Source: Actinomycetes bacterium
GTDB taxonomy: Bacteria > Actinomycetota > UBA4738 > HRBIN12
NCBI GenBank assembly: GCA_031364965.1
Contig: JANLXF010000222.1
Coordinates: forward strand, 1-45,464
Direction: 5' to 3'
DNA: 45,464 nt
Shown: piece after piece, positions 6,992 through 34,857 of the stretch
Layout of the letters: every line of letters begins with the position of its first letter
Numbering within the stretch: position 1 is the first letter of the stretch
Translations under genes and position numbers: made by a program
The notes under the pieces: model-generated
The model's database searches: none
Told to the model about the DNA's origin: nothing
What the model saw: only the letters and a program-made list of their open reading frames with translations

Positions 6992-7680
6992 CCGGGACAA
7001 ACTACCGGAGCGACGGCCCCGGGCAGGGTGTCGATCGTCTCCAGGGCAGATCGCACGTCGTCGAAGTGCTTCCATGGGAGATAGGGAACGCCGTCGGATT
7101 CGCAGATGCCGGGGAGCACGTCCTTCGCGAACACGATGTCGGCGTACAGGGCGGCGTACCGATCGGTCTGGCCTTCGCCGACGAACGCGACCGGCCCGTG
7201 CGCCTCGCGGTACATCGTGACGGCACGCATCTTGCAGGTCCCGCATCCCACGCACTCCGGATGCGGATGACCGAACGTCAGCCCGGCGGGCATCTCCTCG
7301 GTACTCCAGCGCTGCTCGTTCGAAAGCACCCTGAGGTGGCCGAGGCCCGCCGCGTCCAAGATCGCGTCGATGTAGAACCCGAACCCGTCGGAGACCACGG
7401 CGACCGGCACGTCGAGGCTCTCGAGCCACCTGCAGAACGGCGCGAAGGTCGGGTCGATCGGGCAATGGGCCAGCGCGAACGAGAGCATCGTCGCCCGGTC
7501 GGTCCGCAGCGCAGCGTTCTCCTCGATGATGGCTTCGCGCAGCCCGATGTCACCTCGGTCGACGGCAGCTTCCCACGAGCGCCAGGAGGGATCGGCGAAC
7601 TCGTTCAGCAGATGCTCGGCCACGTCGTGCGAACACGCCGTTCCGTCGAAGTCCACGAGTACCGCGCCGACCGGAAGCAT
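6973..7680 (-). CDS. MtnX-like HAD-IB family phosphatase
   Basis: DFDGT motif I, VSDG motif II, CxxCGTCK, FVGEGQTD, VFAKD. Confidence 0.82.
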   Translation of the reverse strand: MLPVGAVLVDFDGTACSHDVAEHLLNEFADPSWRSWEAAVDRGDIGLREAIIEENAALRTDRATMLSFALAHCPIDPTFAPFCRWLESLDVPVAVVSDGFGFYIDAILDAAGLGHLRVLSNEQRWSTEEMPAGLTFGHPHPECVGCGTCKMRAVTMYREAHGPVAFVGEGQTDRYAALYADIVFAKDVLPGICESDGVPYLPWKHFDDVRSALETIDTLPGAVAPVVCPGWTLPD

Positions 7681-9399: not shown

Positions 9400-9447
9400 A
9401 TCTGTGTCCCCGAGAGGGGAGCGCCTCCGGGTGCGGAAAGGCAGCGA

Positions 9448-21539: not shown

Positions 21540-22037
21540 CTAGTTGTCGTCGATCGGCTGGCCGCCGGGCGTCACGGACTCCGTCAGGGGCTTCACGAAC
21601 CACTTCCCGTAGTCGCTCCACCCTTCCTTCGCATAGAAGGCGGTCGTCGCCTCGCGCCACGAGGCGGTTACCAGCGCCATACGGAAGCAGCCACGCTTGC
21701 GCGCGAGGTCCTCGGCGGCGCGCAAGAGCGCCGAGCCGACGCCCAGCCCGCGTGCGGTCGCGGTGACGACCACGTCGTGCACGCGTGCCTGGGGTCTGTG
21801 GTCGCCCAGTCGCTGGTGGTACTCCATGTCGACCACGCCGACGACCGACCCCGCCGCTTCAGCGACCAGGGTGACGTTCCCGATCTGCCGCAGGTGGCCC
21901 GCGAACGCCTGGCGGTGGGTCGGGTCGTCGGCCGTTCCCTCCGCGACACCGCGCCCCAGCTCCACCAGCAGCCCGGCGACGGCGGGCCAGTCCTCGGGCC
22001 GGGCGAAGCGGACGGCGACGCGAGCAGGCTCGTCCAT
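21540..22037 (-). CDS. GNAT family acetyltransferase
   Basis: VVTATARGLGVG, AFYAKEGW; TGATG coupling to the upstream gene. Confidence 0.85.
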   Translation of the reverse strand: MDEPARVAVRFARPEDWPAVAGLLVELGRGVAEGTADDPTHRQAFAGHLRQIGNVTLVAEAAGSVVGVVDMEYHQRLGDHRPQARVHDVVVTATARGLGVGSALLRAAEDLARKRGCFRMALVTASWREATTAFYAKEGWSDYGKWFVKPLTESVTPGGQPIDDN

Positions 22038-23227
22038 CAGAAGAAGAACGGGGTCCATGGGTCGGGGCCGTCGAGGATCGCCGCGAGCGGGTCGACGACG
22101 GGATCGTCTGCGTCGAGGTGGCCGAGCCGCACCGCATCGTGCGCGCGAAGGTAGCCGGTGAACATCGACGACAAGACGCCGATCGGCAACGCTCGCCGAT
22201 CGTGCCCTTCCGCGCGCTCGACCGAGGCGCGACCGCCGCTGACGGCGAGGCGCCATGCGCCCGCGTTGTCGGGGTACATCGGGTCGTCGACCGCGAAGGT
22301 GGCGTCCACGTCGATCCCCGGGTAGCCGCGCGCCCCGAACGCGGCCGGCACGTCGAGGATGCGCAGCATCCAGTCGTAGCGGTACGGGCGCTCGACGAAC
22401 GCGTCCAGGGAGCTGAGCGCGATCGGATCGTTCGGCGGCCCGGCCCACTGCAGCCAGGTGCCGAGCCCGCGGTACCGGCGGAAGTAGGACCAGAGCGCGC
22501 GCTGGGCCGTGGGTGTCACCGCGAACAGCGCGCGGCAGTCGATGCCGAACGCGATGTCCAGCAGTCCCGGCTCGGTCTGCCGCGTGAACGACGCCACGCC
22601 GGTGATGCGGCCGCCCTCCCGGACCACGACCGTGCGCCCGGCGTCATCGTCGGATGCCGGGAGCAGGCGGGAGATCCAGAGCTCGTCGGTGACCGGCTCG
22701 ACGGGCCCGGCCGAGGTCGAGATCCACTCACGATATGCCGCGTGCATCTCGGAGACATCGCGCGGCGGGTCGGCGAGCTCGACGTTCGGGAGGGCGTCGT
22801 CGCCCGGCGGCAGCGCGTCCAGCGCCACTCGGTGGCGGGTCAATACCCCGGCGGTCTCGTAGCCCATACGGCGGTAAGGACCCAGGACGGCGGGGAAGAG
22901 TGCCGTGAGTGGGATGCCACGCTCTCGGGCGCGGTCCAGTAGCGCACGGATACACGCGGTGGCCAGCCCGCTCTCGCGGTGCTCGGGCAGCGTCGCCACA
23001 CCCCAGATCCCCGAGCAGCCGATCGGCCGTCCTCCGAACCACTGGTCGAAGTGGAAGTCGCCCGCGGTGGCCACGACCCTGCCGTCCTCGATCGCGACGC
23101 GCATGTCTTCCAACGGCCAGAACGGGGAACGTTCGATCGCTCGTTCTCGCGAGAAGTTCAGCGCGGTGGACGTCGTCTCGGCGATGCCGAGCAGGTGCTC
23201 TTGGCTAGGGGCGACGATCGTCGTCAC
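22037..23227 (-). CDS. Eis-like GNAT acetyltransferase with C-terminal SCP2-like domain
   Basis: GVATLPEHRESGLA, YRRMGY, MLRILDVPAA, aromatic C-terminus; GTG start overlaps the MazG-like stop (GTGA). Confidence 0.85.
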   Translation of the reverse strand: MTTIVAPSQEHLLGIAETTSTALNFSRERAIERSPFWPLEDMRVAIEDGRVVATAGDFHFDQWFGGRPIGCSGIWGVATLPEHRESGLATACIRALLDRARERGIPLTALFPAVLGPYRRMGYETAGVLTRHRVALDALPPGDDALPNVELADPPRDVSEMHAAYREWISTSAGPVEPVTDELWISRLLPASDDDAGRTVVVREGGRITGVASFTRQTEPGLLDIAFGIDCRALFAVTPTAQRALWSYFRRYRGLGTWLQWAGPPNDPIALSSLDAFVERPYRYDWMLRILDVPAAFGARGYPGIDVDATFAVDDPMYPDNAGAWRLAVSGGRASVERAEGHDRRALPIGVLSSMFTGYLRAHDAVRLGHLDADDPVVDPLAAILDGPDPWTPFFF

Positions 23228-23511
23228 GGGAAGGCACATCCGCAAGGCTTCGAGCCGCATCGAGGGCAACCATCGGCGTAGCGCGCCATCGCCACCTCGA
23301 GGTCGATCCCCTCGACGTTCGCGAGGGACAACAGCCACGCGAGGACGTCGCCGAACTCGTGCTCGAGGTTCGCGCGATCGCCGGTCCGCAGTGCCTTCGC
23401 GAGCTCCCCGACCTCCTCGGTGAGCCAGCGGAACGTGGCGTCGCGACCCCGCTCGGCGTCTCGCGTGAGATAGGTGTCCCGGAGTGCTGACTGGAGTGCG
23501 GCGAGTTCCAT
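23224..23511 (-). CDS. MazG-like nucleotide pyrophosphohydrolase
   Basis: WLTEEVGELA...EHEFGDVLAW (ExxE...ExxD) and Cys-rich tail CPRCGSKPCGC. Confidence 0.88.
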   Translation of the reverse strand: MELAALQSALRDTYLTRDAERGRDATFRWLTEEVGELAKALRTGDRANLEHEFGDVLAWLLSLANVEGIDLEVAMARYADGCPRCGSKPCGCAFP

Positions 23512-23568
23512 CGGGCGAGTCTAGCGGCGGACACCTTCGTCTCGGCCGGCGGCGTCTCGGATCCCGAC

Positions 23569-23598
23569 TTGTCTACCAACCGGTAGAGAAGGCATACT
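23569..23598 (+). promoter_or_regulatory. Promoter TTGTCT-N18-CATACT with overlapping palindrome TCTACC-N4-GGTAGA (candidate TetR operator)
   Basis: Perfect 6-bp inverted repeat at 23572-23587 overlapping the -35 and spacer; ATG 7 nt after the -10. Confidence 0.65.
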
Positions 23599-23605
23599 CC
23601 TGCCC

Positions 23606-25894
23606 ATGGCGGACAGCGGGGGGACCGCGCCTTCGATCGTGGAGAAGCTGTCGGGGAAGCGGATCCTGCTGACCGGCGTCACCGGCTTCCTCGCGCAGGT
23701 GGTCTTCGAGCGCCTGCTCGCCGACTTCCCCGAGACCGAGGTCGTCCTGCTCGTCCGATCTCAGACGAGCGCCACCAGCCGGGAGCGCGTCGAGTACCTG
23801 CTGCGCAAGCCCGCCTTCGATACGTTGCGTGAGCGCATCGGGGCTGACGGCCTCCTGCAGCTCTTGGACGAGCGCGTCCAGGTGGTCGACGGCGATTTCG
23901 GGCGTGGCGTGCCCGAGATCCCCGGCGGGATCGACATCGCGTGCCACTCGGCCGCGACCGTCAGTTTCGACCCGCCGATCGACGAGGGGTTCATGACGAA
24001 CCTGCAGGGCGCGATCAACCTGTACCAGGGTGTGCTCGCCGGCGGCTCGACACCCTCGCTGGTCCACGTCTCCACGGCGTACGTGGCGGGTGTGCAGAAG
24101 GGCGTGATCCCCGAGGGTCCTCTCGAGCACAAGGTCGACTACCGCCTGGAGCTCGAGCTTGCCATCGGGGCACGCCGCGACGTCGAGGTGTCATCTCGCC
24201 GCCCGGAGCAGCTCGCCGCCTTCCTCGAGAAGTCGAAGAAGGCGCACTCCCGTGCCGGCCCGTCCACGGTGGCCGAGGACGCAGAGGACCGCCGCCAGCG
24301 GTGGGTGACCAAGCGACTCGTCGAGTACGGCCGCATGCGCGCTCGGTCGCTCGGCTGGCCCGACGTCTACACCTTCACGAAGGCGATGGGCGAGCGCGCC
24401 GTCGAGGAGCTGGCGCGCGAGGCGAACCTGCCGCTCTCGATCGTCCGTCCGTCGATCATCGAGTCCGCACTCCTGCATCCCTTCCCCGGGTGGATCGACG
24501 GGTTCAAGATGGCCGACCCGATCATCCGCGCCTACGGCCTCGGCCAGATCCCCGAGTTCCCGGGGATCCCCGAAGGCATCATCGACCTGATCCCCGTGGA
24601 CTTCGTCGTGAACGCGATCCTGGCGGTCGCGGCGAACCCCGCCCAGCCGGGAGAGGCCCTCCACTACAACGTCAGCTCGGGCTACCGCAACCCTGTGCGG
24701 TTCTTCGAGCTCTACGACTGGATCCGGGGCTACTTCGAGGAACACCCGCTCCCCGAGCGCGGTCGGGGCGAGCACAAGGTGCCCGAGTGGAAGTTCCCAG
24801 GGAACCTGAGCGTGGACCGGATGCTCCGCCGGGCCGAACGGCTCACCGACGTCGCCGAGCAGATCGTCACGCATCTGCCCAAGTCCTCGGGGATGCGCAG
24901 CGCGATCCGCCGCGTCGACCGCGACAAGGCGCGCGTCGACTTCGTCAAGCGGTACAGCGAGCTCTACGGCATGTACACCGAGACGGAGGTCGTCTACACC
25001 GACGACCGCACTTTCGCGCTCTTCCAGAGCCTGAACGATCAGGACAAGGCGTACTTCCCGTTCGACGCCGCCATGGTCGACTGGAAGTACTACCTGAAGG
25101 ACGTGCACACCCCGGCCGTGACGCAGTCGCTCCGCGAGCTGTCGAAGCGCGATCGCGAGAAGCCGACGGTGAAGATCACGCCCCGCGACCAGCCGGTGGT
25201 GGCCGTGTTCGACATGGAGGGCACGATCATCACGTCGAACGTGGTGGAGTCCTATGTCTGGACGCGCATGGCCGACCTGGAGCCCGACGACTGGCCCAAG
25301 GAGCTCCTGAGCGTCTTCGGGAAGATCCCCGGCTACCTGCAGATCGACCGGCGTGACCGCGGGGACTTCCTCCGGATCTTCTTCAGGCGGTACGAAGGTG
25401 CGAGCGTTGACGGCATCGATCGGCTCGTGAGGGCGCACGTCGGGGAATTCATGCTGCAGAAGGCGAGCGCCGCGGCGATCCGCCGGGTGCGGGCGCATCG
25501 CGCAGCGGGCCATCGCACGATCTTGATCACCGCGGCGGCCGAGCCGTTCATCAGGCCGTTGTCGCCGCTCTTCGACGTCGTGATCGGGGCGGAGTTGGAG
25601 CACCGAGACGGCCGCTACACCGGCTTCATGTCGGCGCCCCCGCTCGTGGGCGAGGCGCGCGCCGCGTGGCTCAAGCGGTACGCGCTGCTCGAGGGCGTGG
25701 ACCTGAAGCACTCGTATGCCTACGCCGACTCGTACTCCGACCTTCCGTTGCTGCGGGCGGTCGGCACCCCCGTCGCCGTCTCGCCCGACTCCGCGCTCTA
25801 CCGCCACGCCCGCCGCCGCCGGTGGCCGGTCGAGGAGTGGGCGATGACCAAGAGCATGCCGCGCGTGCGGTTCCCGAGGCCGGCGGTCCGATGA
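23606..25894 (+). CDS. Fatty acyl-CoA reductase (extended SDR, male-sterility type) fused to a C-terminal HAD-IB hydrolase
   Basis: TGVTGFLA, HVSTAYV, YTFTK (YxxxK), RPSII, DLIPVDFVVN; then FDMEGT, LITAA, YADSYSD. Confidence 0.88.
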   Translation: MADSGGTAPSIVEKLSGKRILLTGVTGFLAQVVFERLLADFPETEVVLLVRSQTSATSRERVEYLLRKPAFDTLRERIGADGLLQLLDERVQVVDGDFGRGVPEIPGGIDIACHSAATVSFDPPIDEGFMTNLQGAINLYQGVLAGGSTPSLVHVSTAYVAGVQKGVIPEGPLEHKVDYRLELELAIGARRDVEVSSRRPEQLAAFLEKSKKAHSRAGPSTVAEDAEDRRQRWVTKRLVEYGRMRARSLGWPDVYTFTKAMGERAVEELAREANLPLSIVRPSIIESALLHPFPGWIDGFKMADPIIRAYGLGQIPEFPGIPEGIIDLIPVDFVVNAILAVAANPAQPGEALHYNVSSGYRNPVRFFELYDWIRGYFEEHPLPERGRGEHKVPEWKFPGNLSVDRMLRRAERLTDVAEQIVTHLPKSSGMRSAIRRVDRDKARVDFVKRYSELYGMYTETEVVYTDDRTFALFQSLNDQDKAYFPFDAAMVDWKYYLKDVHTPAVTQSLRELSKRDREKPTVKITPRDQPVVAVFDMEGTIITSNVVESYVWTRMADLEPDDWPKELLSVFGKIPGYLQIDRRDRGDFLRIFFRRYEGASVDGIDRLVRAHVGEFMLQKASAAAIRRVRAHRAAGHRTILITAAAEPFIRPLSPLFDVVIGAELEHRDGRYTGFMSAPPLVGEARAAWLKRYALLEGVDLKHSYAYADSYSDLPLLRAVGTPVAVSPDSALYRHARRRRWPVEEWAMTKSMPRVRFPRPAVR

Positions 25895-25907
25895 GGAGGT
25901 ACGCGTG

Positions 25908-27113
25908 ATGGCCCAGGCGCTCGAGCTCTTCCGCAGCGCGCCGCGGTTCCTCACCGCGCGGACGGTGGGAGACCGCATACCCGGGCTCGTGTCCGGACCC
26001 CTCGCCCCGCTCCGCCTGGTCAACAAGGCGGACCCCGTGCCCACGCGGGACGGATGGGCGCGGGTCAAGCCGCTCTTATCCGGGATCTGCGGCAGCGATC
26101 TCTCGACGCTGGCCGGGAAGTCCTCGTTCTACTTCTCGCCGTTGGTGACGCTCCCGTTCGTGCCCGGTCACGAGGTCGTGGGCGAGCTGCTCGACGATTG
26201 CGGCGATCTGAAGGCCGGAACCCGCGTCGTGCTTTCCTCGGTCCTGGGGTGCGCCGCGCGCGGACTCCCAGAGCTCTGTGCGAACTGCGCGGCCGGCGAG
26301 TATGGCCGATGCGACCGCGTGACGGTCGGCGACCTCGATCCGGGCCTGCAGACGGGCTACTGCCGCGATACCGGGGGCGGGTGGAGCAGGCTGATGCTGG
26401 CACACCGGTCGCAGCTCTGGGCCGTGCCCTCCGCACTCAGCGACGAGACCGCGGTGCTGATCGAGCCCCTCGCGTGCGCGATCCATGCCGCGCTCAGGGC
26501 GCGGGTTCCCGACGGTGGCTCCGTCCTCGTGATCGGTGCCGGCACCGTGGGCTTGCTCACCTCGATCGCGCTACGGCGTTTCGCGAACCCGGGACGCGTG
26601 GTCGTGGCGGCGAAGCACCCCCGTCAACGCGCCGCCGCGACGCTGGCCGGCGCCGACGAGGTCGTCCGCCCCGAGCACGCCCTCAAGGCGGTGCGGCGTT
26701 CCTCGCAGGCCGTGAAGCTCACCCCCGAGCGAGGGCAGGACTTCCTGCTCGGGGGGGTCGACGTCGTGCTCGAATGCACGGGCTCAAAGAGCGCGCTCGA
26801 TATGGCCTTGCGCACGACGAAGGCCGGCGGCCGCGTGGTGGTGAGCGGCATCCCCGCCCCGGGGGCCGACCTCACCCCGCTCTGGTTCCGCGAGCTCGAG
26901 CTCGTCGGGGCTTACACCAGCGCGATGGAAGACGTCGACGGGGGCCGACGGCATTCATTCGCCCTCGCCCTGGAACTTGCGAGCAACCTGCCCATGCTGG
27001 ACCAGCTCGTGGGCGCGACCTATCCGCTCGACCGCTGGCGCGACGCGATCGATCACGCGATGTCCGCCGGACGGCTCGGCACGTTCAAGGTGGCCTTCGC
27101 GCCCCAGACCTAG
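25908..27113 (+). CDS. Zinc-dependent alcohol dehydrogenase (MDR family)
   Basis: GICGSD, GHE, four structural Cys, EPLAC, GAGTVG; AGGAGG RBS; start GTG 25905 or ATG 25908. Confidence 0.9.
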   Translation: MAQALELFRSAPRFLTARTVGDRIPGLVSGPLAPLRLVNKADPVPTRDGWARVKPLLSGICGSDLSTLAGKSSFYFSPLVTLPFVPGHEVVGELLDDCGDLKAGTRVVLSSVLGCAARGLPELCANCAAGEYGRCDRVTVGDLDPGLQTGYCRDTGGGWSRLMLAHRSQLWAVPSALSDETAVLIEPLACAIHAALRARVPDGGSVLVIGAGTVGLLTSIALRRFANPGRVVVAAKHPRQRAAATLAGADEVVRPEHALKAVRRSSQAVKLTPERGQDFLLGGVDVVLECTGSKSALDMALRTTKAGGRVVVSGIPAPGADLTPLWFRELELVGAYTSAMEDVDGGRRHSFALALELASNLPMLDQLVGATYPLDRWRDAIDHAMSAGRLGTFKVAFAPQT

Positions 27114-27123
27114 GAGACCGACG

Positions 27124-28713
27124 ATGCCCAGACCAGGATTCGTGTTGGAGGTGGACGAGCGGACACCTCCTCTCCTCGTGCATGAAGGCGAGCGCTTCCG
27201 CATGCAGAAGTTCCCGCTGGGGACGCGCGTGGTCTACCCACCCGACGCGCTCCCCGGGGTGCCAGACGTGCACGCCGCGATCCGTCACGCGCTGCTGCAT
27301 CCCGTGGGGGACTCGAAGCCACTGCCCGAGTTGCTGTTCTCGGGGATGAAGCTCACGATCGCGATCGACGACATCTCGCTGCCGTTGCCGCCGATGGTGA
27401 CGCCCGACATGCGCCAGCGCGTGCTCGAGCACGTGATCGAGTTGGCGGCGCGCACGGGAGTGGAGGACCTCGAGATCATCGTCGCCACCGCGCTGCATCG
27501 GCGGATGACCGGCGCGGAGATCCGACGGGCAGTGGGCGAACGCGTCTTCCGTTCGTTCTGGCCCACGCAGCTCTACAACTTCGATGCCGAAGATCCGAAC
27601 GCGCTGCTGCACATCGGCATGACCGACCAGGACGAAGACGTCGAGATCTCCAAGCGCGCGGCGGAGTCCGACCTGATCATCTACGTGAACATCAACCTCG
27701 TCGCGATGGATGGTGGCCACAAGTCGGTGGCTGTCGGCCTGGCCGGCTACCGGTCACTGAAGCATCACCACAACGTCAAGACGATGATGCACTCCAAGTC
27801 GTACATGGACCCGCGTGAAGGGCACAGCGCGATCAACGACTCGGTGGTGCGCATGGGCCGGGTGCTGGCGGCGAGCGGCGTGAATATCTTCCAGATCGAG
27901 ACCACGTTGAACAGCGAGACGTTCCCCTCGAACCTCGGGTTCCTCAACAAGCGGGAGTGGGAGTGGAGCGCGTACGACCAGGGGTTGATGATGGCGGCCC
28001 GCAAGGGCAACGAGCTCGCTCCGCCGCGCATGCGTCGCGAGCTCTACCGGCGGATCGAGGCGCCGTACAAGCTGACCGGCATCAACGCCGGCGAGGTCGA
28101 GGCAGTGCATGAGCGCACGCTCACGAACCTGCACCGGCAACAGCTCGTCGAGGTGAACGGTCAGTCCGACATCTTGATCATGGGGTTGCCGTATCTCGGT
28201 CCCTACAACGTGAACTCGGTCCTGAACCCGATCCTCGTGCACTGCCTGGGCCTCGGGTACCTGTTCAACATGTACCGGAACAAGCCGCTCGTCCGCCAGG
28301 GCGGCGTCGTGATCTTGCACCACCCGGTGCCGTGGGAGTTCCACCAGATCCATCACCCCAGCTACATCGACTTCTTCGAAGAGGTGCTCGCCGAGACCAC
28401 CGACCCCGCCGAGATGGAGAAGAAGTTCGAGGAGAAGTACGCGACCGACCCGTGGTACATCCACCTGTACCGGACCTCGAACGCGTACCACGGCGTGCAC
28501 CCGTTCTACATGTGGTATTGGGGCGCGCACGGCCGCGATCATGCCGGCGACGTGATCTTCGTCGGCGGGGAGGCCAATTCGGTGGCCCGGCTCGGGTACC
28601 GGCGGGCCGACAGCCTCCGCGACGCGATCGAGATGGCGAAGGACACCGTGGGCTCCAGTCCCACGATGACCTACTTCCACGCGCCACCCGTGATGATCGC
28701 TGACGTCCGGTGA
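27124..28713 (+). CDS. Lactate racemase (LarA/DUF2088) superfamily protein, divergent
   Basis: ALLHPVGDSKPL, TIAIDD, IVATALHRRM, AAESDLII, GGHKS, GGVVIL; AGGAG RBS. Confidence 0.78.
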   Translation: MPRPGFVLEVDERTPPLLVHEGERFRMQKFPLGTRVVYPPDALPGVPDVHAAIRHALLHPVGDSKPLPELLFSGMKLTIAIDDISLPLPPMVTPDMRQRVLEHVIELAARTGVEDLEIIVATALHRRMTGAEIRRAVGERVFRSFWPTQLYNFDAEDPNALLHIGMTDQDEDVEISKRAAESDLIIYVNINLVAMDGGHKSVAVGLAGYRSLKHHHNVKTMMHSKSYMDPREGHSAINDSVVRMGRVLAASGVNIFQIETTLNSETFPSNLGFLNKREWEWSAYDQGLMMAARKGNELAPPRMRRELYRRIEAPYKLTGINAGEVEAVHERTLTNLHRQQLVEVNGQSDILIMGLPYLGPYNVNSVLNPILVHCLGLGYLFNMYRNKPLVRQGGVVILHHPVPWEFHQIHHPSYIDFFEEVLAETTDPAEMEKKFEEKYATDPWYIHLYRTSNAYHGVHPFYMWYWGAHGRDHAGDVIFVGGEANSVARLGYRRADSLRDAIEMAKDTVGSSPTMTYFHAPPVMIADVR

Positions 28714-28723
28714 GGAGCCGCAG

Positions 28724-29635
28724 ATGACCGGCATCCGCGACGATCTGAAGAGGATGGCGGAGGGGTTCCGTTGGGGGCGCCGGCCGATGGTGCCACGCTC
28801 CGCCGAGCCCTATGCACTCGAGCGTACGGATCGAACGTTCCCCACCGACTGGGCGCGCACGGAGGCGGGAACGGCCGCGAGGCAGGTGATCCTGAAGTCG
28901 GTGATCCTGCCGATGCTCCGCAACGAGGTGGCCCTGAAGGTCCACGGCCGCGACGTGCTGGACGGCGTGCAGGGTCCGTTGATCTTCTACTCGAACCACA
29001 CGAGCCATCTGGACGCGACGATCATCATGACGTCGCTGCCCGACCGCTGGCAGTCCAAGACGGCGGTGGGAGCGGCGCGCGACTACTTCTTCGACGTGTG
29101 GTGGCGTCAGGCGTTCACGGCACTGGTGTACGGGGGGTTCCCGATCGACCGGGCCAAGGGCGGACGCGGTTCGGTCACGAAGGCGCGCGAGCTCCTCGAC
29201 GACGGCTGGTCGCTCGTCGTGTTCCCCGAGGGGCAGCGATCGCCCGACGGGCACGTGCAACGGTTCCGGCACGGCACCGCGAGACTCTGTATCGAGGCGG
29301 GTGTCGGGGCTGCGCCGATCGGGATCCGCGGGGCCTATCAGGCGTGGCCGAAGGGATCCAACTGGCCCAAGGCGGGCCGCCCACCGGTGAACGTCCGGTT
29401 CGGCGCGCCGATCTACCCCGAGGAAGGCGAGACCCACCAGGCGTTCTCGCTGCGGATGACCCAGGCCGTAGCCGCGCTGCACGACGAGGATCGCTCGACG
29501 TGGTGGGAGGCGTTGCGTCGGGCAGAGCACGGGGAGACGCCGTCGCTGCACGGACCACAGGGACCGGACTGGCTCCGCCGCTGGGAGGGCCTCCGACCGG
29601 TACCGAGACGCCGATCGTCCTCGACCTGGGAGTAG
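28724..29635 (+). CDS. Lysophospholipid acyltransferase (PlsC family)
   Basis: NHTSHLD (HxxxxD), FPIDR, FPEGQRS. Confidence 0.92.
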   Translation: MTGIRDDLKRMAEGFRWGRRPMVPRSAEPYALERTDRTFPTDWARTEAGTAARQVILKSVILPMLRNEVALKVHGRDVLDGVQGPLIFYSNHTSHLDATIIMTSLPDRWQSKTAVGAARDYFFDVWWRQAFTALVYGGFPIDRAKGGRGSVTKARELLDDGWSLVVFPEGQRSPDGHVQRFRHGTARLCIEAGVGAAPIGIRGAYQAWPKGSNWPKAGRPPVNVRFGAPIYPEEGETHQAFSLRMTQAVAALHDEDRSTWWEALRRAEHGETPSLHGPQGPDWLRRWEGLRPVPRRRSSSTWE

Positions 29636-29637
29636 AT

Positions 29638-30258
29638 GTGCCCCGCGGCGACGGCACAGCTCGGCGCGGCACGATCGTCGAGGAGGCGATCCGCCAGATC
29701 GGCCGCGACGGCTACCGCGGCGCCAGCCTCGATCACATCGCGAACGCGGTGGGGGTGCGCAAACAAACCGTGCTGTACTACTTCCCCAACAAGGACGCGC
29801 TCCTCGAAGCCTGCCTTGCGGCCGCGGGGGAGCGGCTCATGCGAGAGATCGCCGCTGCGCTCGAGGGCAAGGAGACCTACTGGGATCGCGCGGAGGCCGT
29901 GATCCACGCGGTCTTCAGTCTTGCCTCCGAGTGGCCGGAGTTCCCGATGTTCGTGCGCGAGGCGGGGCGCCTCGGCCCCGACGCGTTCGACCGATTCGCC
30001 GGCGGGCTCGACCCTCTTCGGCGCCGCGCGATCGACTTCCTGCAGGCGGGTATGGATCAGGGCGAGATCCGGAAGCAAGATCCCGCCCTGCTCCTGTTCA
30101 CGCTCTACACGGCGGTGGTCGGGTCGCTCACCGAAGCCAGCGTCCTCAACGCGGTGGTCGGTCCGGGCAAGAGCCGACAGTCACTGCGTCGGCGCGAGCG
30201 CGAGGTGATCGCGTTCGTCCGTGCGGCGCTGCAGCCCGCCGAGCGGGTCTCCGACTAG
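29638..30258 (+). CDS. TetR/AcrR family transcriptional regulator
   Basis: HTH GYRGASLDHIANAVGVRKQTVLYYFPNKDALL; GTG 2 nt after the plsC-like stop. Confidence 0.92.
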   Translation: MPRGDGTARRGTIVEEAIRQIGRDGYRGASLDHIANAVGVRKQTVLYYFPNKDALLEACLAAAGERLMREIAAALEGKETYWDRAEAVIHAVFSLASEWPEFPMFVREAGRLGPDAFDRFAGGLDPLRRRAIDFLQAGMDQGEIRKQDPALLLFTLYTAVVGSLTEASVLNAVVGPGKSRQSLRRREREVIAFVRAALQPAERVSD

Positions 30259-30944
30259 ATCGTCGAGACGCGGAAGTCCAGGAACTTCGAGCGGCCGTCG
30301 TCTTCGTCCCGGCGGTTGCCGTTGGCCACGATGCGGATCCGCATCCCGGCCTTCTTGCCGCCGCCGAACGCGGACGCCTGCTCGGGTGTCATGCGGTACC
30401 GGATCGAGTCGATCAGGGTGGCCCCGTCGTAGATCGAGCACCGGATGATCCGCCGCGTGCGCTCGCTGACCAGCAGGTAGATCTGGCCGGCTGTGATGCT
30501 CAGGCCGGACTTGTCCTTCTCGACGTTCGGCTCGCTGCCGTGCAGCCGGTCGCCGATCACCAGGTACCCGAGCGGGTGCGCGGGCGTGAGCTCGACGCGG
30601 CAGTACAGGTGGTTCTCGACGTTCTTGTACGGGGCGACGATCCCGACGTTCGACTTGCCGGGGGACAGGCGTACGTGCATCTGCGTCCGTTGGGACTTGT
30701 GCAAGCCCTTGGTGCCGATCACCGCGTAGCCGATGTTCGTGACCGGATCGACGGTCGACGGGTTCACGCGCGCCGTGCCCTTCGTCGTCCGCCAGGTCGA
30801 GTTGATCTGCCGCCACGCCGCACGGAGGACCGGACCGTCGAAGCGGTCGCCCACGATGATGGCGGCCTGGGCCGGCGGTGCGAAGGCGGCGAGCACGCCG
30901 AACGTGAGGAGCACGGATACGAGGGAACGACGACGTCGGTTCAC
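30255..30944 (-). CDS. Secreted basic beta-rich hypothetical protein
   Basis: AGGAGG RBS, GTG start, signal peptide ending AQA; mature part rich in alternating beta-strand patterns. Confidence 0.7.
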   Translation of the reverse strand: MNRRRRSLVSVLLTFGVLAAFAPPAQAAIIVGDRFDGPVLRAAWRQINSTWRTTKGTARVNPSTVDPVTNIGYAVIGTKGLHKSQRTQMHVRLSPGKSNVGIVAPYKNVENHLYCRVELTPAHPLGYLVIGDRLHGSEPNVEKDKSGLSITAGQIYLLVSERTRRIIRCSIYDGATLIDSIRYRMTPEQASAFGGGKKAGMRIRIVANGNRRDEDDGRSKFLDFRVSTI

Positions 30945-33645: not shown

Positions 33646-34857
33646 ATGGAGGAGATCGAGCTCTACGGCGCCAGCTGGTGTCCCGACTGCCGAAGGGCGA
33701 AGAAGTTCCTGGCCGACCAGCGGATCGCGTACGTGTGGCACGACATCGAGCAGCGTCCCGATCTCGTGGAGATCGTCGAGCAGAAGAACGACGGCAAGCG
33801 CACGATCCCCACGATCGTGTTCCCCGACGGGTCCCACCTGGCCGAGCCCTCGAACGAGGAGCTGGCCGACAAGCTCGGCATCGCGCGGGTCGCCGACATG
33901 CATGTCTACGACCTCGTGATCGTCGGGGGCGGCCCCACCGGGCTCACGACCTCGCTCTATGCCGCTCGCGAGAATCTCGAGACGTTGGTGATCGACTCGA
34001 AGGGTCTGGGCGGTCAGGCGGGCGTTACCGAGCGGCTCGACAACTACCCGGGGTTCCCCGAGGGGATCGCGGGCGCCGAGCTCGCCGACCGCTTCGTGAA
34101 GCAGGCCGAGCGTTACCGGGTGGAGATGCTGCAGGCTGTGAGCGTCACGCACATCACCGACGAGGGCCACCGCGAGCTCGACGTCGAGACCGCCACCGGC
34201 GACCACTACCACGCGCGCGCCGTGCTGATCGCGACCGGGTCGTCGTACCGCAGAACCGGCGCTGAAGGCGAGGAAGATCTGATCGGCGCCGGCATCCACT
34301 TCTGCGCGACGTGCGACGGGCCGTTCTACAAGGGGTCGGAGGAGTTGCTGGTGATCGGCGGCGGGAACAGCGGCCTCGAGGAAGGGCTCTTCCTCACCCA
34401 GTTCACCGACAAGGTGACGGTCGTCGAGTACGGCCAGGAGCTCCGCGGTTCCAAGATCCTGCAGGACAAGGTCCAGAACCATCCGAAGATGGAGGTTCTG
34501 CTCGGGCACGGCGTGACGTCCTTCGCCGCGAAGGACGACGGTAGCGGCAAGCTGGGGACGGTCACGATCGAGGACCGTGCATCGGGAGAGCTGGTCGAGC
34601 GGCGTCCGGCCGGGGTCTTCGTGTTCGTCGGGCTCGATCCGAACACCGGGTTCCTCGAGGGACAGGTCGGCCTCGACGAGCGGAAGTTCGTGACGACCGA
34701 CGCGACGTTCATGACCGACCTCCCCGGGGTGTTCGCCGCCGGTGACGTGCGGAACGGCTCCACGAAACAGCTCGCCTCGGCGGTGGGCGAGGGCGCCGCC
34801 GTCGCGATCCAGATCCGCGGGTACCTCGACCGCATCGAGCGGGAGGAGGCGGTCTAG
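33646..34857 (+). CDS. Glutaredoxin/mycoredoxin-like domain fused to thioredoxin reductase
   Basis: N-terminal WCPDC...TIPTI; then GGGPTG, CATCDG, GGGNSG, FAAGD. Confidence 0.9.
   Translation: MEEIELYGASWCPDCRRAKKFLADQRIAYVWHDIEQRPDLVEIVEQKNDGKRTIPTIVFPDGSHLAEPSNEELADKLGIARVADMHVYDLVIVGGGPTGLTTSLYAARENLETLVIDSKGLGGQAGVTERLDNYPGFPEGIAGAELADRFVKQAERYRVEMLQAVSVTHITDEGHRELDVETATGDHYHARAVLIATGSSYRRTGAEGEEDLIGAGIHFCATCDGPFYKGSEELLVIGGGNSGLEEGLFLTQFTDKVTVVEYGQELRGSKILQDKVQNHPKMEVLLGHGVTSFAAKDDGSGKLGTVTIEDRASGELVERRPAGVFVFVGLDPNTGFLEGQVGLDERKFVTTDATFMTDLPGVFAAGDVRNGSTKQLASAVGEGAAVAIQIRGYLDRIEREEAV

What the first reader, a model, noticed from the sequence alone, without database searches (positions are those of the whole stretch)
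23606..30258. Five-gene FAR-HAD / Zn-ADH / LarA-like / PlsC / TetR operon: candidate split ether-lipid (elb-like) pathway
Seen: five co-oriented genes separated by 2-13 nt, the three internal enzyme genes with AGGAG(G) RBSs. They encode a fatty acyl reductase fused to a HAD phosphatase, a Zn dehydrogenase, a LarA-superfamily protein, an acyltransferase and TetR. Established: FARs make fatty alcohols/aldehydes, and in Myxococcus the multidomain ElbD (reductase, acyl-CoA synthetase, carrier, acyltransferase) with neighbouring genes makes alkyl ether lipids. My recollection that this cluster also includes HAD and DUF2088/LarA-like genes needs checking. Inference: this is a rearranged actinobacterial version making alkyl-glycerol ether lipids or another fatty-alcohol lipid, with the LarA-like protein and ADH supplying the unexplained redox/ether-forming steps. 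I know of no characterised pathway with this gene set.
Basis: partly seen in the sequence, partly recalled or inferred. Interest (0 to 1): 0.85.

Follow-up and report, generated by a model that had tools for sequence, protein, structure and literature searches.

The report
Actinobacterial lipid operon with nickel-enzyme homolog
This is a real five-gene operon, found in about a quarter of sampled Actinomycetota, that joins a fatty-alcohol-forming reductase, a phosphatase, a dehydrogenase, an acyltransferase and a relative of the nickel-dependent lactate racemase, and it is a strong but untested candidate for making ether-linked membrane lipids in aerobic bacteria.

Summary
Window 23606-30258 holds five co-oriented genes 2-13 nt apart: FAR fused to HAD-IB phosphatase, Zn-ADH, a LarA homolog, a PlsC acyltransferase and TetR.

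The LarA homolog belongs to the uncharacterised LarAH14/15/16 family (881 bits, cut-off 740). It keeps the cofactor-tethering Lys, the Ni-binding His and one catalytic His. It lacks the second catalytic His and the carboxylate-binding Arg.

FAR-HAD, ADH and LarAH are colinear in 36 of 36 fetched loci. All four core genes are present in 75 of 80 named loci; the other 5 are cut by contig ends. Carriers include Frankia, Nocardioides, Kribbella, Micromonospora, Actinomadura and Acidimicrobiales.

In Rubrobacter, whose membranes are reported to be dominated by mixed ether/ester lipids, plsY replaces PlsC (6 of 6 loci). larBCE cofactor genes flank the cluster in 15-16 of 116 loci.

An ether-lipid function is the best reading (about 0.5) but is untested. 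Likeness to the Myxococcus elb operon is only at domain level, and a LarA-like ElbC could not be checked.

One puzzle remains: 11 of 98 carriers, including all five sampled congeners, lack LarC, yet LarAH stays under purifying selection.

The parts
23572..23587 (+). Palindrome TCTACC-N4-GGTAGA, the likely TetR operator, 19 nt upstream of the g1 start codon
   Evidence: It is the only match in the window with up to 1 mismatch (expected 0.04). The arms are invariant and the spacer varies in 17 of 18 loci that carry the downstream TetR; L089 lacks it. Binding by TetR is inferred.
23606..25894 (+). g1: fatty acyl-CoA reductase (about residues 1-520) fused to a HAD-IB phosphatase domain (about residues 533-745), 762 aa
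   Evidence: Pfam gives NAD_binding_4 at residues 22-338, Sterile at 444-502 and HAD at 533-717. PDB 7eoz 'Fatty acyl-CoA reductase' matches at E 2e-48 over residues 10-507. TIGR01488 HAD-IB scores 55.4 bits against a cut-off of 45. Among 99 orthologs, GxTGFxG is kept in 98, YxxxK in 99, the HAD nucleophile Asp in 99, the +2 position is Glu in 58 and Asp in 41, and DSxSD is kept in 98.
25905..27113 (+). g2: zinc-dependent medium-chain dehydrogenase of the polyol/threonine-dehydrogenase type
   Evidence: Pfam gives ADH_N plus ADH_zinc_N. The nearest PDB entries are ketose reductase and xylitol, threonine, sorbitol and butanediol dehydrogenases. The catalytic Zn ligands Cys/His/Glu are kept in 111 of 111 orthologs and the structural Zn cysteines in 106 of 111. 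No acidic residue follows beta-2 ('AAKH'), from which I infer NADP(H) use.
27124..28713 (+). g3: LarA homolog of the LarAH14/15/16 family (nickel-pincer-nucleotide enzyme superfamily), 529 aa
   Evidence: NCBIfam NF052592 scores 881.5 bits against a cut-off of 740. The AF2 model has pLDDT 92.8. The best fold match is 9q3k_A, TM 0.76/0.84. D82/D83, H125, K200 and H215/H216 are invariant. The Arg75 equivalent is Leu86, and there is no His at the His174 position. It is the only Lar_N gene in the genome.
28724..29635 (+). g4: PlsC-family (LPLAT) acyltransferase, 303 aa
   Evidence: Pfam Acyltransferase, E 8.5e-20. PDB 5kym, a 1-acyl-G3P acyltransferase, E 3e-10. NHxSHxD is kept in 101 of 101 orthologs and the FPEGxRS block is conserved. 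In the Rubrobacter family plsY takes its place.
29638..30258 (+). g5: TetR-family regulator, 206 aa, GTG start 2 nt after the g4 stop codon
   Evidence: Pfam TetR_N, E 1.4e-11. Among 36 loci it lies downstream and co-oriented in 10, divergent upstream of g1 in 10, and was not found in 16.

Best explanation
The five genes are a TetR-controlled operon for making a lipid built from a fatty alcohol and a glycerol phosphate backbone. The most likely product is 1-O-alkyl-glycerol-3-phosphate, the precursor of mixed ether/ester (or alk-1-enyl) membrane lipids.

Assignments that rest on sequence:
- The FAR domain reduces acyl-CoA or acyl-ACP to a fatty alcohol.
- The PlsC-type enzyme (PlsY in Rubrobacter) acylates glycerol-3-phosphate or DHAP.
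- The Zn-ADH is a ketone/secondary-alcohol oxidoreductase, probably using NADPH.
- The HAD domain is an active phosphatase.
- TetR binds the TCTACC-N4-GGTAGA palindrome.

Inferred steps:
- That oxidation activates C1 for exchange of the acyl group against the fatty alcohol, the job AGPS does in eukaryotes.
- The hydride then returns to the same face. This would explain why only one catalytic histidine is kept.
- The ADH reduces any free acyl- or alkyl-DHAP (or fatty aldehyde).
- The role of the phosphatase is open.
For: 1. Conservation.
- NF052592 is over its cut-off in 98 of 401 sampled genomes of the phylum.
- FAR-HAD, ADH and LarAH are adjacent, in the same order and strand, in 36 of 36 fetched over-cut-off loci. 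They accompany 0 of 4 sub-cut-off paralogs.
- All four core genes are present in 75 of 80 named loci; the other 5 are cut by contig ends.

2. All catalytic motifs are conserved in 99-111 orthologs.

3. Link to glycerolipid synthesis.
- The 6 loci without PlsC all have plsY overlapping the FAR-HAD start. None of the other 110 loci has plsY in its flank.

4. Link to ether lipids.
- Those 6 loci belong to the Rubrobacter family. The L075 LarAH is 520/520 identical to a protein that NCBI labels Rubrobacter radiotolerans.
- The cluster is in 31 of 31 sampled genomes of that family.
- Rubrobacterales are cited for dominant mixed ether/ester lipids.
- The only other strong NAD_binding_4 protein there is an A-T-R reductase without an acyltransferase domain.

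5. Cofactor.
- larE-like, larC and larB genes flank the cluster in 15-16 of 116 loci.
- 87 of 98 carriers have LarC.
- The window's genome has larBCE, and this LarAH is its only Lar_N gene.

6. Domain parallel with elb: ElbD (FAR, AT) and ElbB (HAD) are the pair most conserved in elb-like clusters.

7. A weak hint of expression: two short contigs of an RNA library match ADH and LarAH.
Against: - No lipid analysis exists for this organism. I know of no report of ether lipids in Nocardioides, Kribbella, Micromonospora or Frankia (recalled, not searched genus by genus).
- The ether-lipid link rests on one lineage, Rubrobacter. There plsY is the only copy in 4 of 5 genomes, so its position beside the cluster could be incidental.
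- No known ether-forming enzyme is in the operon, and the role given to LarAH is pure inference.
- A Frankia LarAH14 loaded with cofactor showed none of 7 hydroxyacid activities. This is neutral for a lipid substrate.
- 11 of 98 carriers lack LarC, among them all 5 sampled congeners, which also lack LarB where checked. Yet their LarAH is under purifying selection: dN/dS 0.063 at dS 0.23. This argues against strict dependence on the nickel cofactor.
- A phosphatase is not needed to make alkyl-acyl phospholipids.
- I could not read the Rubrobacter paper.
Confidence: 0.5

Rival explanations
1. The operon makes an ester-only neutral or storage lipid from a fatty alcohol. Examples are wax-type esters, or monoacylglycerol made by the acyltransferase plus phosphatase pair, as I recall the plant GPAT4/6 enzymes do. 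ADH and LarAH would modify a head group or a small hydroxy compound. No ether bond is formed.
For: FAR is an alcohol-forming type. A HAD-IB plus PlsC pairing is a known way to make dephosphorylated acylglycerols (recalled). An aldehyde dehydrogenase follows the cluster in 8 of 116 loci. TetR control is common for conditional lipid metabolism.
Against: This reading gives no reason for the strict co-inheritance of a LarA homolog and a polyol-type dehydrogenase in 116 loci. No wax synthase (WS/DGAT) gene is among the recurrent neighbours. It also leaves unexplained the fusion with the housekeeping plsY operon in an organism group whose lipids are mostly ether/ester.
Confidence: 0.2
2. LarAH acts on a 2-hydroxyacyl thioester. 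FAR reduces that thioester to a long-chain 1,2-diol, which the acyltransferase esterifies, giving diol-based rather than glycerol-ether lipids.
For: All characterised LarA enzymes act at the C2 hydroxyl of 2-hydroxy acids. The Arg that binds the free carboxylate is replaced by Leu, which fits a thioester substrate. A paralogous clade sits directly after a family III CoA-transferase in 2 of 4 paralog loci, both from one family.
Against: No 2-hydroxylase or other source of 2-hydroxy fatty acids is in the cluster. The plsY link points to glycerol-3-phosphate. By the title seen, the Rubrobacter lipids are glycerol ether/ester lipids. The CoA-transferase context is confined to one family.
Confidence: 0.1
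3. The operon is catabolic or a repair system, for example turnover of lyso-lipids, alkylglycerols or fatty aldehydes, induced through TetR.
For: TetR regulators often control catabolic operons. Aldehyde dehydrogenase neighbours occur in 8 loci.
Against: FAR enzymes of this type work in the reductive, biosynthetic direction (family knowledge). PlsC and PlsY are biosynthetic. TetR is missing from 16 of 36 loci. In Rubrobacter the genes sit with the only plsY.
Confidence: 0.05

Closest known systems
Myxococcus xanthus elbABCDE ether-lipid operon (ElbD = FAR-ACS-ACP-acyltransferase; ElbB = HAD; ElbA/ElbE = NAD-dependent epimerase/dehydratase family; ElbC = unknown)
   Same: Both have a FAR domain, a PlsC-type acyltransferase domain, a HAD phosphohydrolase and an NAD(P) oxidoreductase in one operon of an aerobic bacterium. 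ElbD plus ElbB are the conserved core of elb-like clusters, as FAR is fused to HAD here.
   Different: This operon has no acyl-CoA synthetase or carrier-protein domain. FAR is fused to HAD, not to the acyltransferase. The oxidoreductase is a Zn MDR, not an SDR. A LarA homolog is present. Whether ElbC is LarA-like could not be tested: it is called 'unknown function'. An Atlas cluster of LarA-like proteins commonest in Myxococcota is only a lead.
Eukaryotic peroxisomal ether-lipid pathway (FAR1, GNPAT, AGPS, acyl/alkyl-DHAP reductase), as described in the review read
   Same: The steps map one to one: fatty alcohol supply (FAR), acylation of the triose/glycerol phosphate (PlsC family), a reductase for the 2-keto intermediate (ADH), and later dephosphorylation (HAD).
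   Different: The operon holds no FAD-dependent AGPS. The position of the ether-forming enzyme would be taken by a nickel-pincer-type LarA homolog. An AGPS elsewhere in the genome was not tested.
LarA superfamily: nickel-pincer-nucleotide racemases and epimerases, in particular the single-histidine LarAHs of PDB 9q3j, 9q2u and 9q3k
   Same: The fold matches over the whole length. The cofactor Lys, the Ni-binding His, the ribose Asp and the first catalytic His are conserved. The second catalytic His is lost, as reported for Desguin groups 14 and 15.
   Different: Sequence identity is about 20%. Arg/Lys75 is replaced by Leu. The genomic context is lipid synthesis, not sugar or hydroxyacid metabolism. 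Four further invariant His residues lie in the C-terminal domain. A minority of carriers have no cofactor synthesis genes.
Anaerobic routes to bacterial ether lipids (Ger / modified PlsA; PlsAR plasmalogen synthase)
   Same: The proposed end product is the same, an sn-1 alkyl or alkenyl glycerolipid.
   Different: Ger converts an existing ester under anoxic conditions and is unrelated in sequence family. The carriers of this cluster are mostly aerobes (recalled).

Membership tests
NCBIfam NF052592, LarAH14/15/16 family | Whole-protein score over the curated cut-off of 740 bits | tested here: met
   881.5 bits, covering profile positions 1-520.
LarA superfamily (NPN-dependent enzymes) | Lar_N domain and the two-domain LarA fold | tested here: met
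   Lar_N at E 7e-38. AF2 model with pLDDT 92.8. Foldseek finds 19 matches at E <= 0.001. The listed ones are LarA-family entries by title, except 4nar, whose title does not say.
LarA superfamily (NPN-dependent enzymes) | Cofactor-binding residues: Lys184 (tether), His200 (Ni), Asp72 (ribose), Arg75 (phosphate/carboxylate) | tested here: inconclusive
   K200, H215/H216 and D82/D83 are invariant in 19 sequences. The Arg75 equivalent is Leu86. Three of the four residues are kept.
LarA superfamily (NPN-dependent enzymes) | Two catalytic histidines (His108 and His174) for inversion of the stereocentre | tested here: not met
   H125 (equivalent to His108) is invariant. No His lies in the 'VNINLV' stretch that aligns with His174. 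The literature says the same of groups 14 and 15. It is therefore not expected to be a racemase.
LarA superfamily (NPN-dependent enzymes) | larB, larC and larE present in the same genome | tested here: met
   Met for this genome: C221:4319-6910. Across the phylum sample it holds for 87 of 98 carriers. It fails in 11, including 5 of 5 sampled congeners.
Alcohol-forming fatty acyl-CoA reductase (FAR) | NAD_binding_4 Rossmann domain with GxxGxxG and YxxxK, plus the C-terminal 'Sterile' domain | tested here: met
   Sterile scores 35.3 bits against a cut-off of 35.4. Activity and chain-length preference cannot be tested here.
HAD-IB phosphatase | Motif I DxDxT nucleophile, motif II Ser/Thr, motif IV acidic pair; TIGR01488 score over its cut-off | tested here: met
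   TIGR01488 scores 55.4 bits against 45. TIGR01490 scores 94.6 against 98.3, just below. The window has DxEGT; among orthologs the +2 position is Glu in 58 and Asp in 41.
PlsC / LPLAT acyltransferase | HX4D catalytic block and FPEGTR block | tested here: met
   NHxSHxD in 101 of 101 orthologs; the FPEGxRS block is conserved. The acceptor (G3P, DHAP or lyso-lipid) cannot be tested here.
elb ether-lipid gene cluster (Myxococcus type) | ElbD architecture: FAR, acyl-CoA synthetase, carrier protein and acyltransferase in one protein | tested here: not met
   None of the five proteins has an AMP-binding or PP-binding domain. FAR and the acyltransferase are separate genes.
   ElbC is described as 'unknown function'. 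No myxobacterial genome could be reached. No held paper contains both DUF2088 and 'ether lipid'.
Eukaryote-type AGPS route | FAD-dependent alkyl-DHAP synthase | not tested
   None is in the operon. The rest of the genome was not searched, because the Pfam domains involved are too generic to be decisive.

The most novel reading that the evidence does not exclude
The LarAH14 protein is the long-sought ether-bond-forming enzyme of aerobic bacteria. On this reading it is a nickel-pincer-cofactor enzyme that performs a hidden redox cycle on 1-acyl-glycerol-3-phosphate and swaps the acyl chain for a fatty alcohol. That would be the first non-racemase reaction of the LarA family and the first nickel-dependent step in membrane-lipid synthesis. 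About a quarter of Actinomycetota genomes, including common soil genera, would then be unrecognised producers of alkyl (or alkenyl) glycerol ether lipids.
Probability: 0.25. Interest if true: 0.9.

Novelty: new variant of a known kind. Interest (0 to 1): 0.72.

Why it matters
How aerobic bacteria form the sn-1 ether bond is unresolved even for the Myxococcus ElbD system.

The producers of the non-isoprenoid alkylglycerols that are widespread in the environment are largely unknown. Aerobic Actinobacteria such as Subtercola and Kineococcus yield plasmalogen-type dimethylacetals that have no known pathway.

This operon offers a compact, widely distributed and directly testable candidate. It is present in cultured, tractable genera.

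It would also give the uncharacterised LarAH14 group a biological context. That context could extend nickel-pincer chemistry beyond racemisation, which the field states is its only known scope.

The carriers that lack cofactor genes offer a natural experiment on whether the cofactor is needed.

Tried and rejected
Things tried that led nowhere:
- Promoter and terminator scan of 23200-30600: no promoter-like site, and one terminator-like site inside g1, no more than in shuffles. Not used.
- The inverted-repeat tool at default length found nothing upstream of g1. The 6+4+6 palindrome was found by eye and by pattern search.
- Contamination test of contig C221, which holds larBCE. Its GC is 68.2% against 70.0 +/- 1.4, and its tetranucleotide distance is at the 88th percentile of contigs of like length. 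Synteny with congeners from about position 9400 shows it is genuine. I first took the two 60-73 nt conserved pieces for tRNA genes, but ARAGORN finds none.
- Attempt to reach a non-actinobacterial genome through L136, which NCBI labels Candidatus Velamenicoccus. Its 'phylum' sample returned what are evidently Actinomycetota genomes again, with the same coordinates as. The question whether a LarA-like gene lies beside elbD stays open.
- The representative search and cluster look-up found distant relatives labelled Lokiarchaeota, Heimdallarchaeota and Propionibacteriaceae, but none from Myxococcota.
- The Pfam scan of long or fused representatives gave one partial LarAH-plus-acyltransferase open frame (P0324) and one LarA plus chlorophyll-a/b-binding chimera (P0298). 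Both are single records and were not used.
- The CoA-transferase beside a paralog is confined to one family. It appears only under a rival explanation.
- Sequencing runs: shares under 0.2 are not used for habitat. The parts of the operon without RNA cover in X20 mean nothing.
- Supplements are closed. Table S1 of Desguin 2020 lists gene neighbours of each LarAH group and may already record this context for group 14.

Papers and what I saw of each:
- Passages only: PMC7583248, PMC11770544, PMC9131029, 10.64898/2026.06.23.733905, PMC13159169, PMC13524815, PMC11796402, PMC7472656, PMC5945732, PMC11150832, PMC11181052, PMC11868695, PMC13012113.
- PMC12611868: abstract and sections 2.1, 2.5 and 2.6.
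- Sinninghe Damste et al. 2023 (Syst Appl Microbiol 46:126404): title and citing sentences only. Its operon statement is recalled.
- Lorenzen 2014: not seen.

Unpublished genomes:
- The tallies include genomes flagged unpublished. G088, G148, G226 and G318 are among the 98 carriers, and all four have LarC.
- The tallies also include flagged genomes.
- I took no sequence from any of them. The tool itself made loci L018, L029 and L034 from three of them; I did not use these.

Full report
**The observation**

The window is 70% G+C. Between 23606 and 30258 five genes lie on the + strand with gaps of 10-13, 10, 10 and 2 nt. GGAGG or AGGAG sites precede the second, third and fourth gene.

Pfam and NCBIfam give these assignments:

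| Gene | Coordinates | Assignment |
|---|---|---|
| g1 | 23606-25894 | NAD_binding_4 + Sterile (fatty acyl reductase) fused to a HAD-IB phosphatase domain |
| g2 | 25905/25908-27113 | Zn medium-chain dehydrogenase |
| g3 | 27124-28713 | LarA homolog |
| g4 | 28724-29635 | PlsC-type acyltransferase |
| g5 | 29638-30258 | TetR |

The neighbours on both sides are unrelated housekeeping genes, so the five genes form a discrete unit. These neighbours are aspartokinase, aspartate-semialdehyde dehydrogenase and an Eis-like acetyltransferase upstream, and an unknown gene and rpsD downstream.

**The parts**

*g1.* The reductase half aligns over its whole length with the solved 'fatty acyl-CoA reductase' 7eoz (E 2e-48). 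Both halves keep their catalytic motifs in 99 orthologs. More than 4000 proteins in the large collection share the fused architecture. All carry only automatic names.

*g2.* It is closest to polyol, ketose and threonine dehydrogenases, which act on secondary alcohols next to a primary one. It is less close to aldehyde reductases. All zinc ligands are invariant. The residue pattern after the second strand of the Rossmann fold suggests NADP(H) (this is an inference from family knowledge).

*g4.* It keeps the HX4D and FPEGxRS blocks.

*g3.* It scores 881 bits against NCBIfam 'LarAH14/15/16' (cut-off 740).
- It folds with high confidence (pLDDT 92.8) into the LarA fold.
- The closest structures are the recently solved 'single catalytic histidine' LarA-like enzymes.
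- In an alignment of 19 family members several residues are invariant: the cofactor-tethering lysine, the nickel-binding histidine, the ribose-binding aspartate and the first catalytic histidine.
- The second catalytic histidine is absent.
- The arginine that binds the substrate carboxylate in characterised enzymes is a leucine.

The literature agrees with this picture.
- Groups 14 and 15 lack the His174 equivalent.
- A Frankia LarAH14 loaded with cofactor had none of seven hydroxyacid activities.
- The known chemistry of the family is limited to racemisation and epimerisation.

**Conservation**

NF052592 is over its cut-off in 98 of 401 genomes sampled evenly from the phylum. I fetched 8 kb on each side of 36 such genes from about 20 families, and of 4 sub-cut-off paralogs.
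- FAR-HAD, ADH and LarAH are adjacent, colinear and co-oriented in 36 of 36. One FAR-HAD is cut by a contig end.
- PlsC follows in 30 of 36.
- None of the 4 paralogs has these partners.

A scan of one genome per species found at least 599 further loci. Of the best 80, 75 show all four core genes in the same order, and the other 5 are cut by contig ends. Named carriers include Frankia, Nocardioides, Kribbella, Micromonospora, Actinoplanes, Actinomadura, Thermomonospora, Jiangellaceae and Acidimicrobiales.

TetR is the variable part. Among the 36 loci it lies downstream in 10, divergent upstream in 10, and was not found in 16. Where it lies downstream, a palindrome TCTACC-N4-GGTAGA stands just upstream of g1 in 17 of 18 loci. 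Its arms are fixed and its spacer is free. In the window it is at 23572-23587 and is unique.

**Link to glycerolipid and ether-lipid synthesis**

The six loci without PlsC all carry plsY, the acyl-phosphate:glycerol-3-phosphate acyltransferase. It lies directly upstream of FAR-HAD and overlaps it. None of the other 110 loci has plsY nearby. In four of five such genomes it is the only plsY.

These loci belong to the Rubrobacter family.
- Their LarAH proteins carry that label in NCBI, and one is identical to a protein named Rubrobacter radiotolerans.
- All 31 sampled genomes of that family have the LarAH gene.
[quoted passage not shown] I saw the title and citing sentences only; the paper is not held.
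- I recall that its abstract mentions a putative operon for 1-O-alkyl glycerol phosphate that resembles the elb operon. I could not verify this, nor whether it is this cluster.
- The only other strong FAR-type domain in those genomes belongs to an adenylation-thiolation-reductase protein without an acyltransferase domain. This cluster is therefore the obvious candidate.

Separately, aerobic Actinobacteria such as Subtercola, Agreia and Kineococcus yield dimethylacetals, the marker of alk-1-enyl ether lipids. These are easily mistaken for 2-hydroxy acids by routine methods. I could not test whether those genera carry the cluster.

**The cofactor**

The window's genome has larB, larC and larE together on contig C221, and g3 is its only Lar_N gene. 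Clustering the flanking reading frames of all 116 loci showed a LarE-like PP-loop enzyme, LarC and LarB next to the cluster in 15-16 loci, in Actinomadura, Micromonospora, Thermomonospora and others. Cross-tabulating, 87 of the 98 carriers have LarC, against 190 of the 303 other genomes.

Eleven carriers have none. They include all five sampled congeners of the window's genus, which also lack LarB where checked.
- C221 is a genuine contig of this genus.
- Its lar genes are bracketed by a 73-nt direct repeat.
- In two congeners without lar genes, LarAH evolves under strong purifying selection (dN/dS 0.063 at dS 0.23) and keeps the cofactor residues.

This is unexplained. Possible accounts are scavenging, another route to the cofactor, or a function that does not need it.

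**How it most likely works**

Shown by sequence:
- an alcohol-forming reductase;
- an active phosphatase;
- an NADP-type secondary-alcohol dehydrogenase;
- a glycerolipid acyltransferase;
- a LarA-fold protein built to hold the nickel-pincer cofactor but not to invert a stereocentre or bind a carboxylate.

The set maps onto the eukaryotic ether-lipid route except for the flavoenzyme AGPS: FAR1, the PlsC-family GNPAT, and acyl/alkyl-DHAP reductase, followed by dephosphorylation.

My inference is that LarAH fills the AGPS gap in three steps.
1. It removes the C2 hydride of 1-acyl-glycerol-3-phosphate onto the cofactor.
2. The resulting 2-keto intermediate lets the fatty alcohol replace the acyl group at C1.
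3. The hydride returns to the same face, so one histidine suffices.

I give the ether-lipid product about 0.5 and this specific mechanism about 0.25. The rivals are ester-only fatty-alcohol lipids, 2-hydroxyacyl or 1,2-diol lipids, and catabolism. They are set out in their own section.

**Comparison with what is known**

The operon works like the elb operon but is not a member of that family.
- It shares the FAR, acyltransferase, HAD and oxidoreductase functions.
- It lacks ElbD's synthetase and carrier domains.
- It uses a different dehydrogenase family.
The recollection of a DUF2088 gene could not be confirmed, because ElbC is described only as unknown.

Three full-text searches found no paper that links LarA or nickel-pincer enzymes with lipid genes.

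**Verdict**

The finding is real, widely conserved and functionally coherent. It is a new variant of bacterial ether-lipid gene clusters, with an unprecedented nickel-enzyme homolog at its centre and partial precedent in Rubrobacter. Nothing about the product has been shown experimentally.

A weak hint of expression comes from two short contigs of one RNA library that match ADH (192 nt, no mismatch) and LarAH (261 nt, 2 mismatches).

The tallies include genomes flagged as unpublished. No sequence from them was used.

Noticed in passing
G000 contig C221:3342-3414 and 7597-7669 (outside the window): The larE-larC-larB block (C221:4319-6910, minus strand) is bracketed by a 73-nt direct repeat, 92% identical. 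The repeat is also 92-98% conserved in congeners that lack the lar genes. ARAGORN finds no tRNA there. It looks like an insertion or deletion site.
   Followed up: partly
Phylum sample; loci L042, L043, L045, L077: Eleven of 98 genomes with the LarAH14 cluster have no LarC, including all five sampled congeners. Their LarAH is nevertheless under strong purifying selection.
   Followed up: partly
L064:6605-7795 and L065 (paralog loci): A sub-cut-off LarA paralog (about 40% identical, same conserved residues) sits directly after a family III CoA-transferase and near an AMP-binding enzyme. This is seen in two genomes of one family and hints at thioester substrates in this branch.
   Followed up: partly
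L123:9301-10914 and 7 further loci (L058, L096-L100, L120): A 538-aa aldehyde dehydrogenase lies downstream of the cluster, mostly co-oriented, in Frankia-like and Micromonospora loci.
   Followed up: no
L052:11413-12069 (Rubrobacter-family locus): A protoglobin gene and two further reading frames are inserted between the ADH and LarAH genes.
   Followed up: no
P0313, P0364: Full-length relatives of LarAH14 at 32-33% identity are labelled Candidatus Lokiarchaeota and Candidatus Heimdallarchaeota. Their gene context could not be read.
   Followed up: no
L167:6844-10092 and L168:6857-10024: Rubrobacter-family genomes carry an adenylation-thiolation-reductase protein followed by an SDR, next to a BCCT transporter in L168. 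The arrangement is reminiscent of betaine/choline-type carboxylate reductases.
   Followed up: no
window 33646-34857 (+): A glutaredoxin domain is fused to a pyridine-nucleotide-disulfide oxidoreductase.
   Followed up: no
window 22037-23338 (-): An Eis-like GNAT acetyltransferase with a C-terminal SCP2 domain lies divergent from the operon. It is not a conserved neighbour in other lineages.
   Followed up: partly
L136 (contig labelled Candidatus Velamenicoccus archaeovorus): This contig carries LarAH-PlsC-TetR at 60-73% identity to the window. Its genome's 'phylum' sample behaves as Actinomycetota, so the public label looks wrong or the contig is mis-binned.
   Followed up: partly
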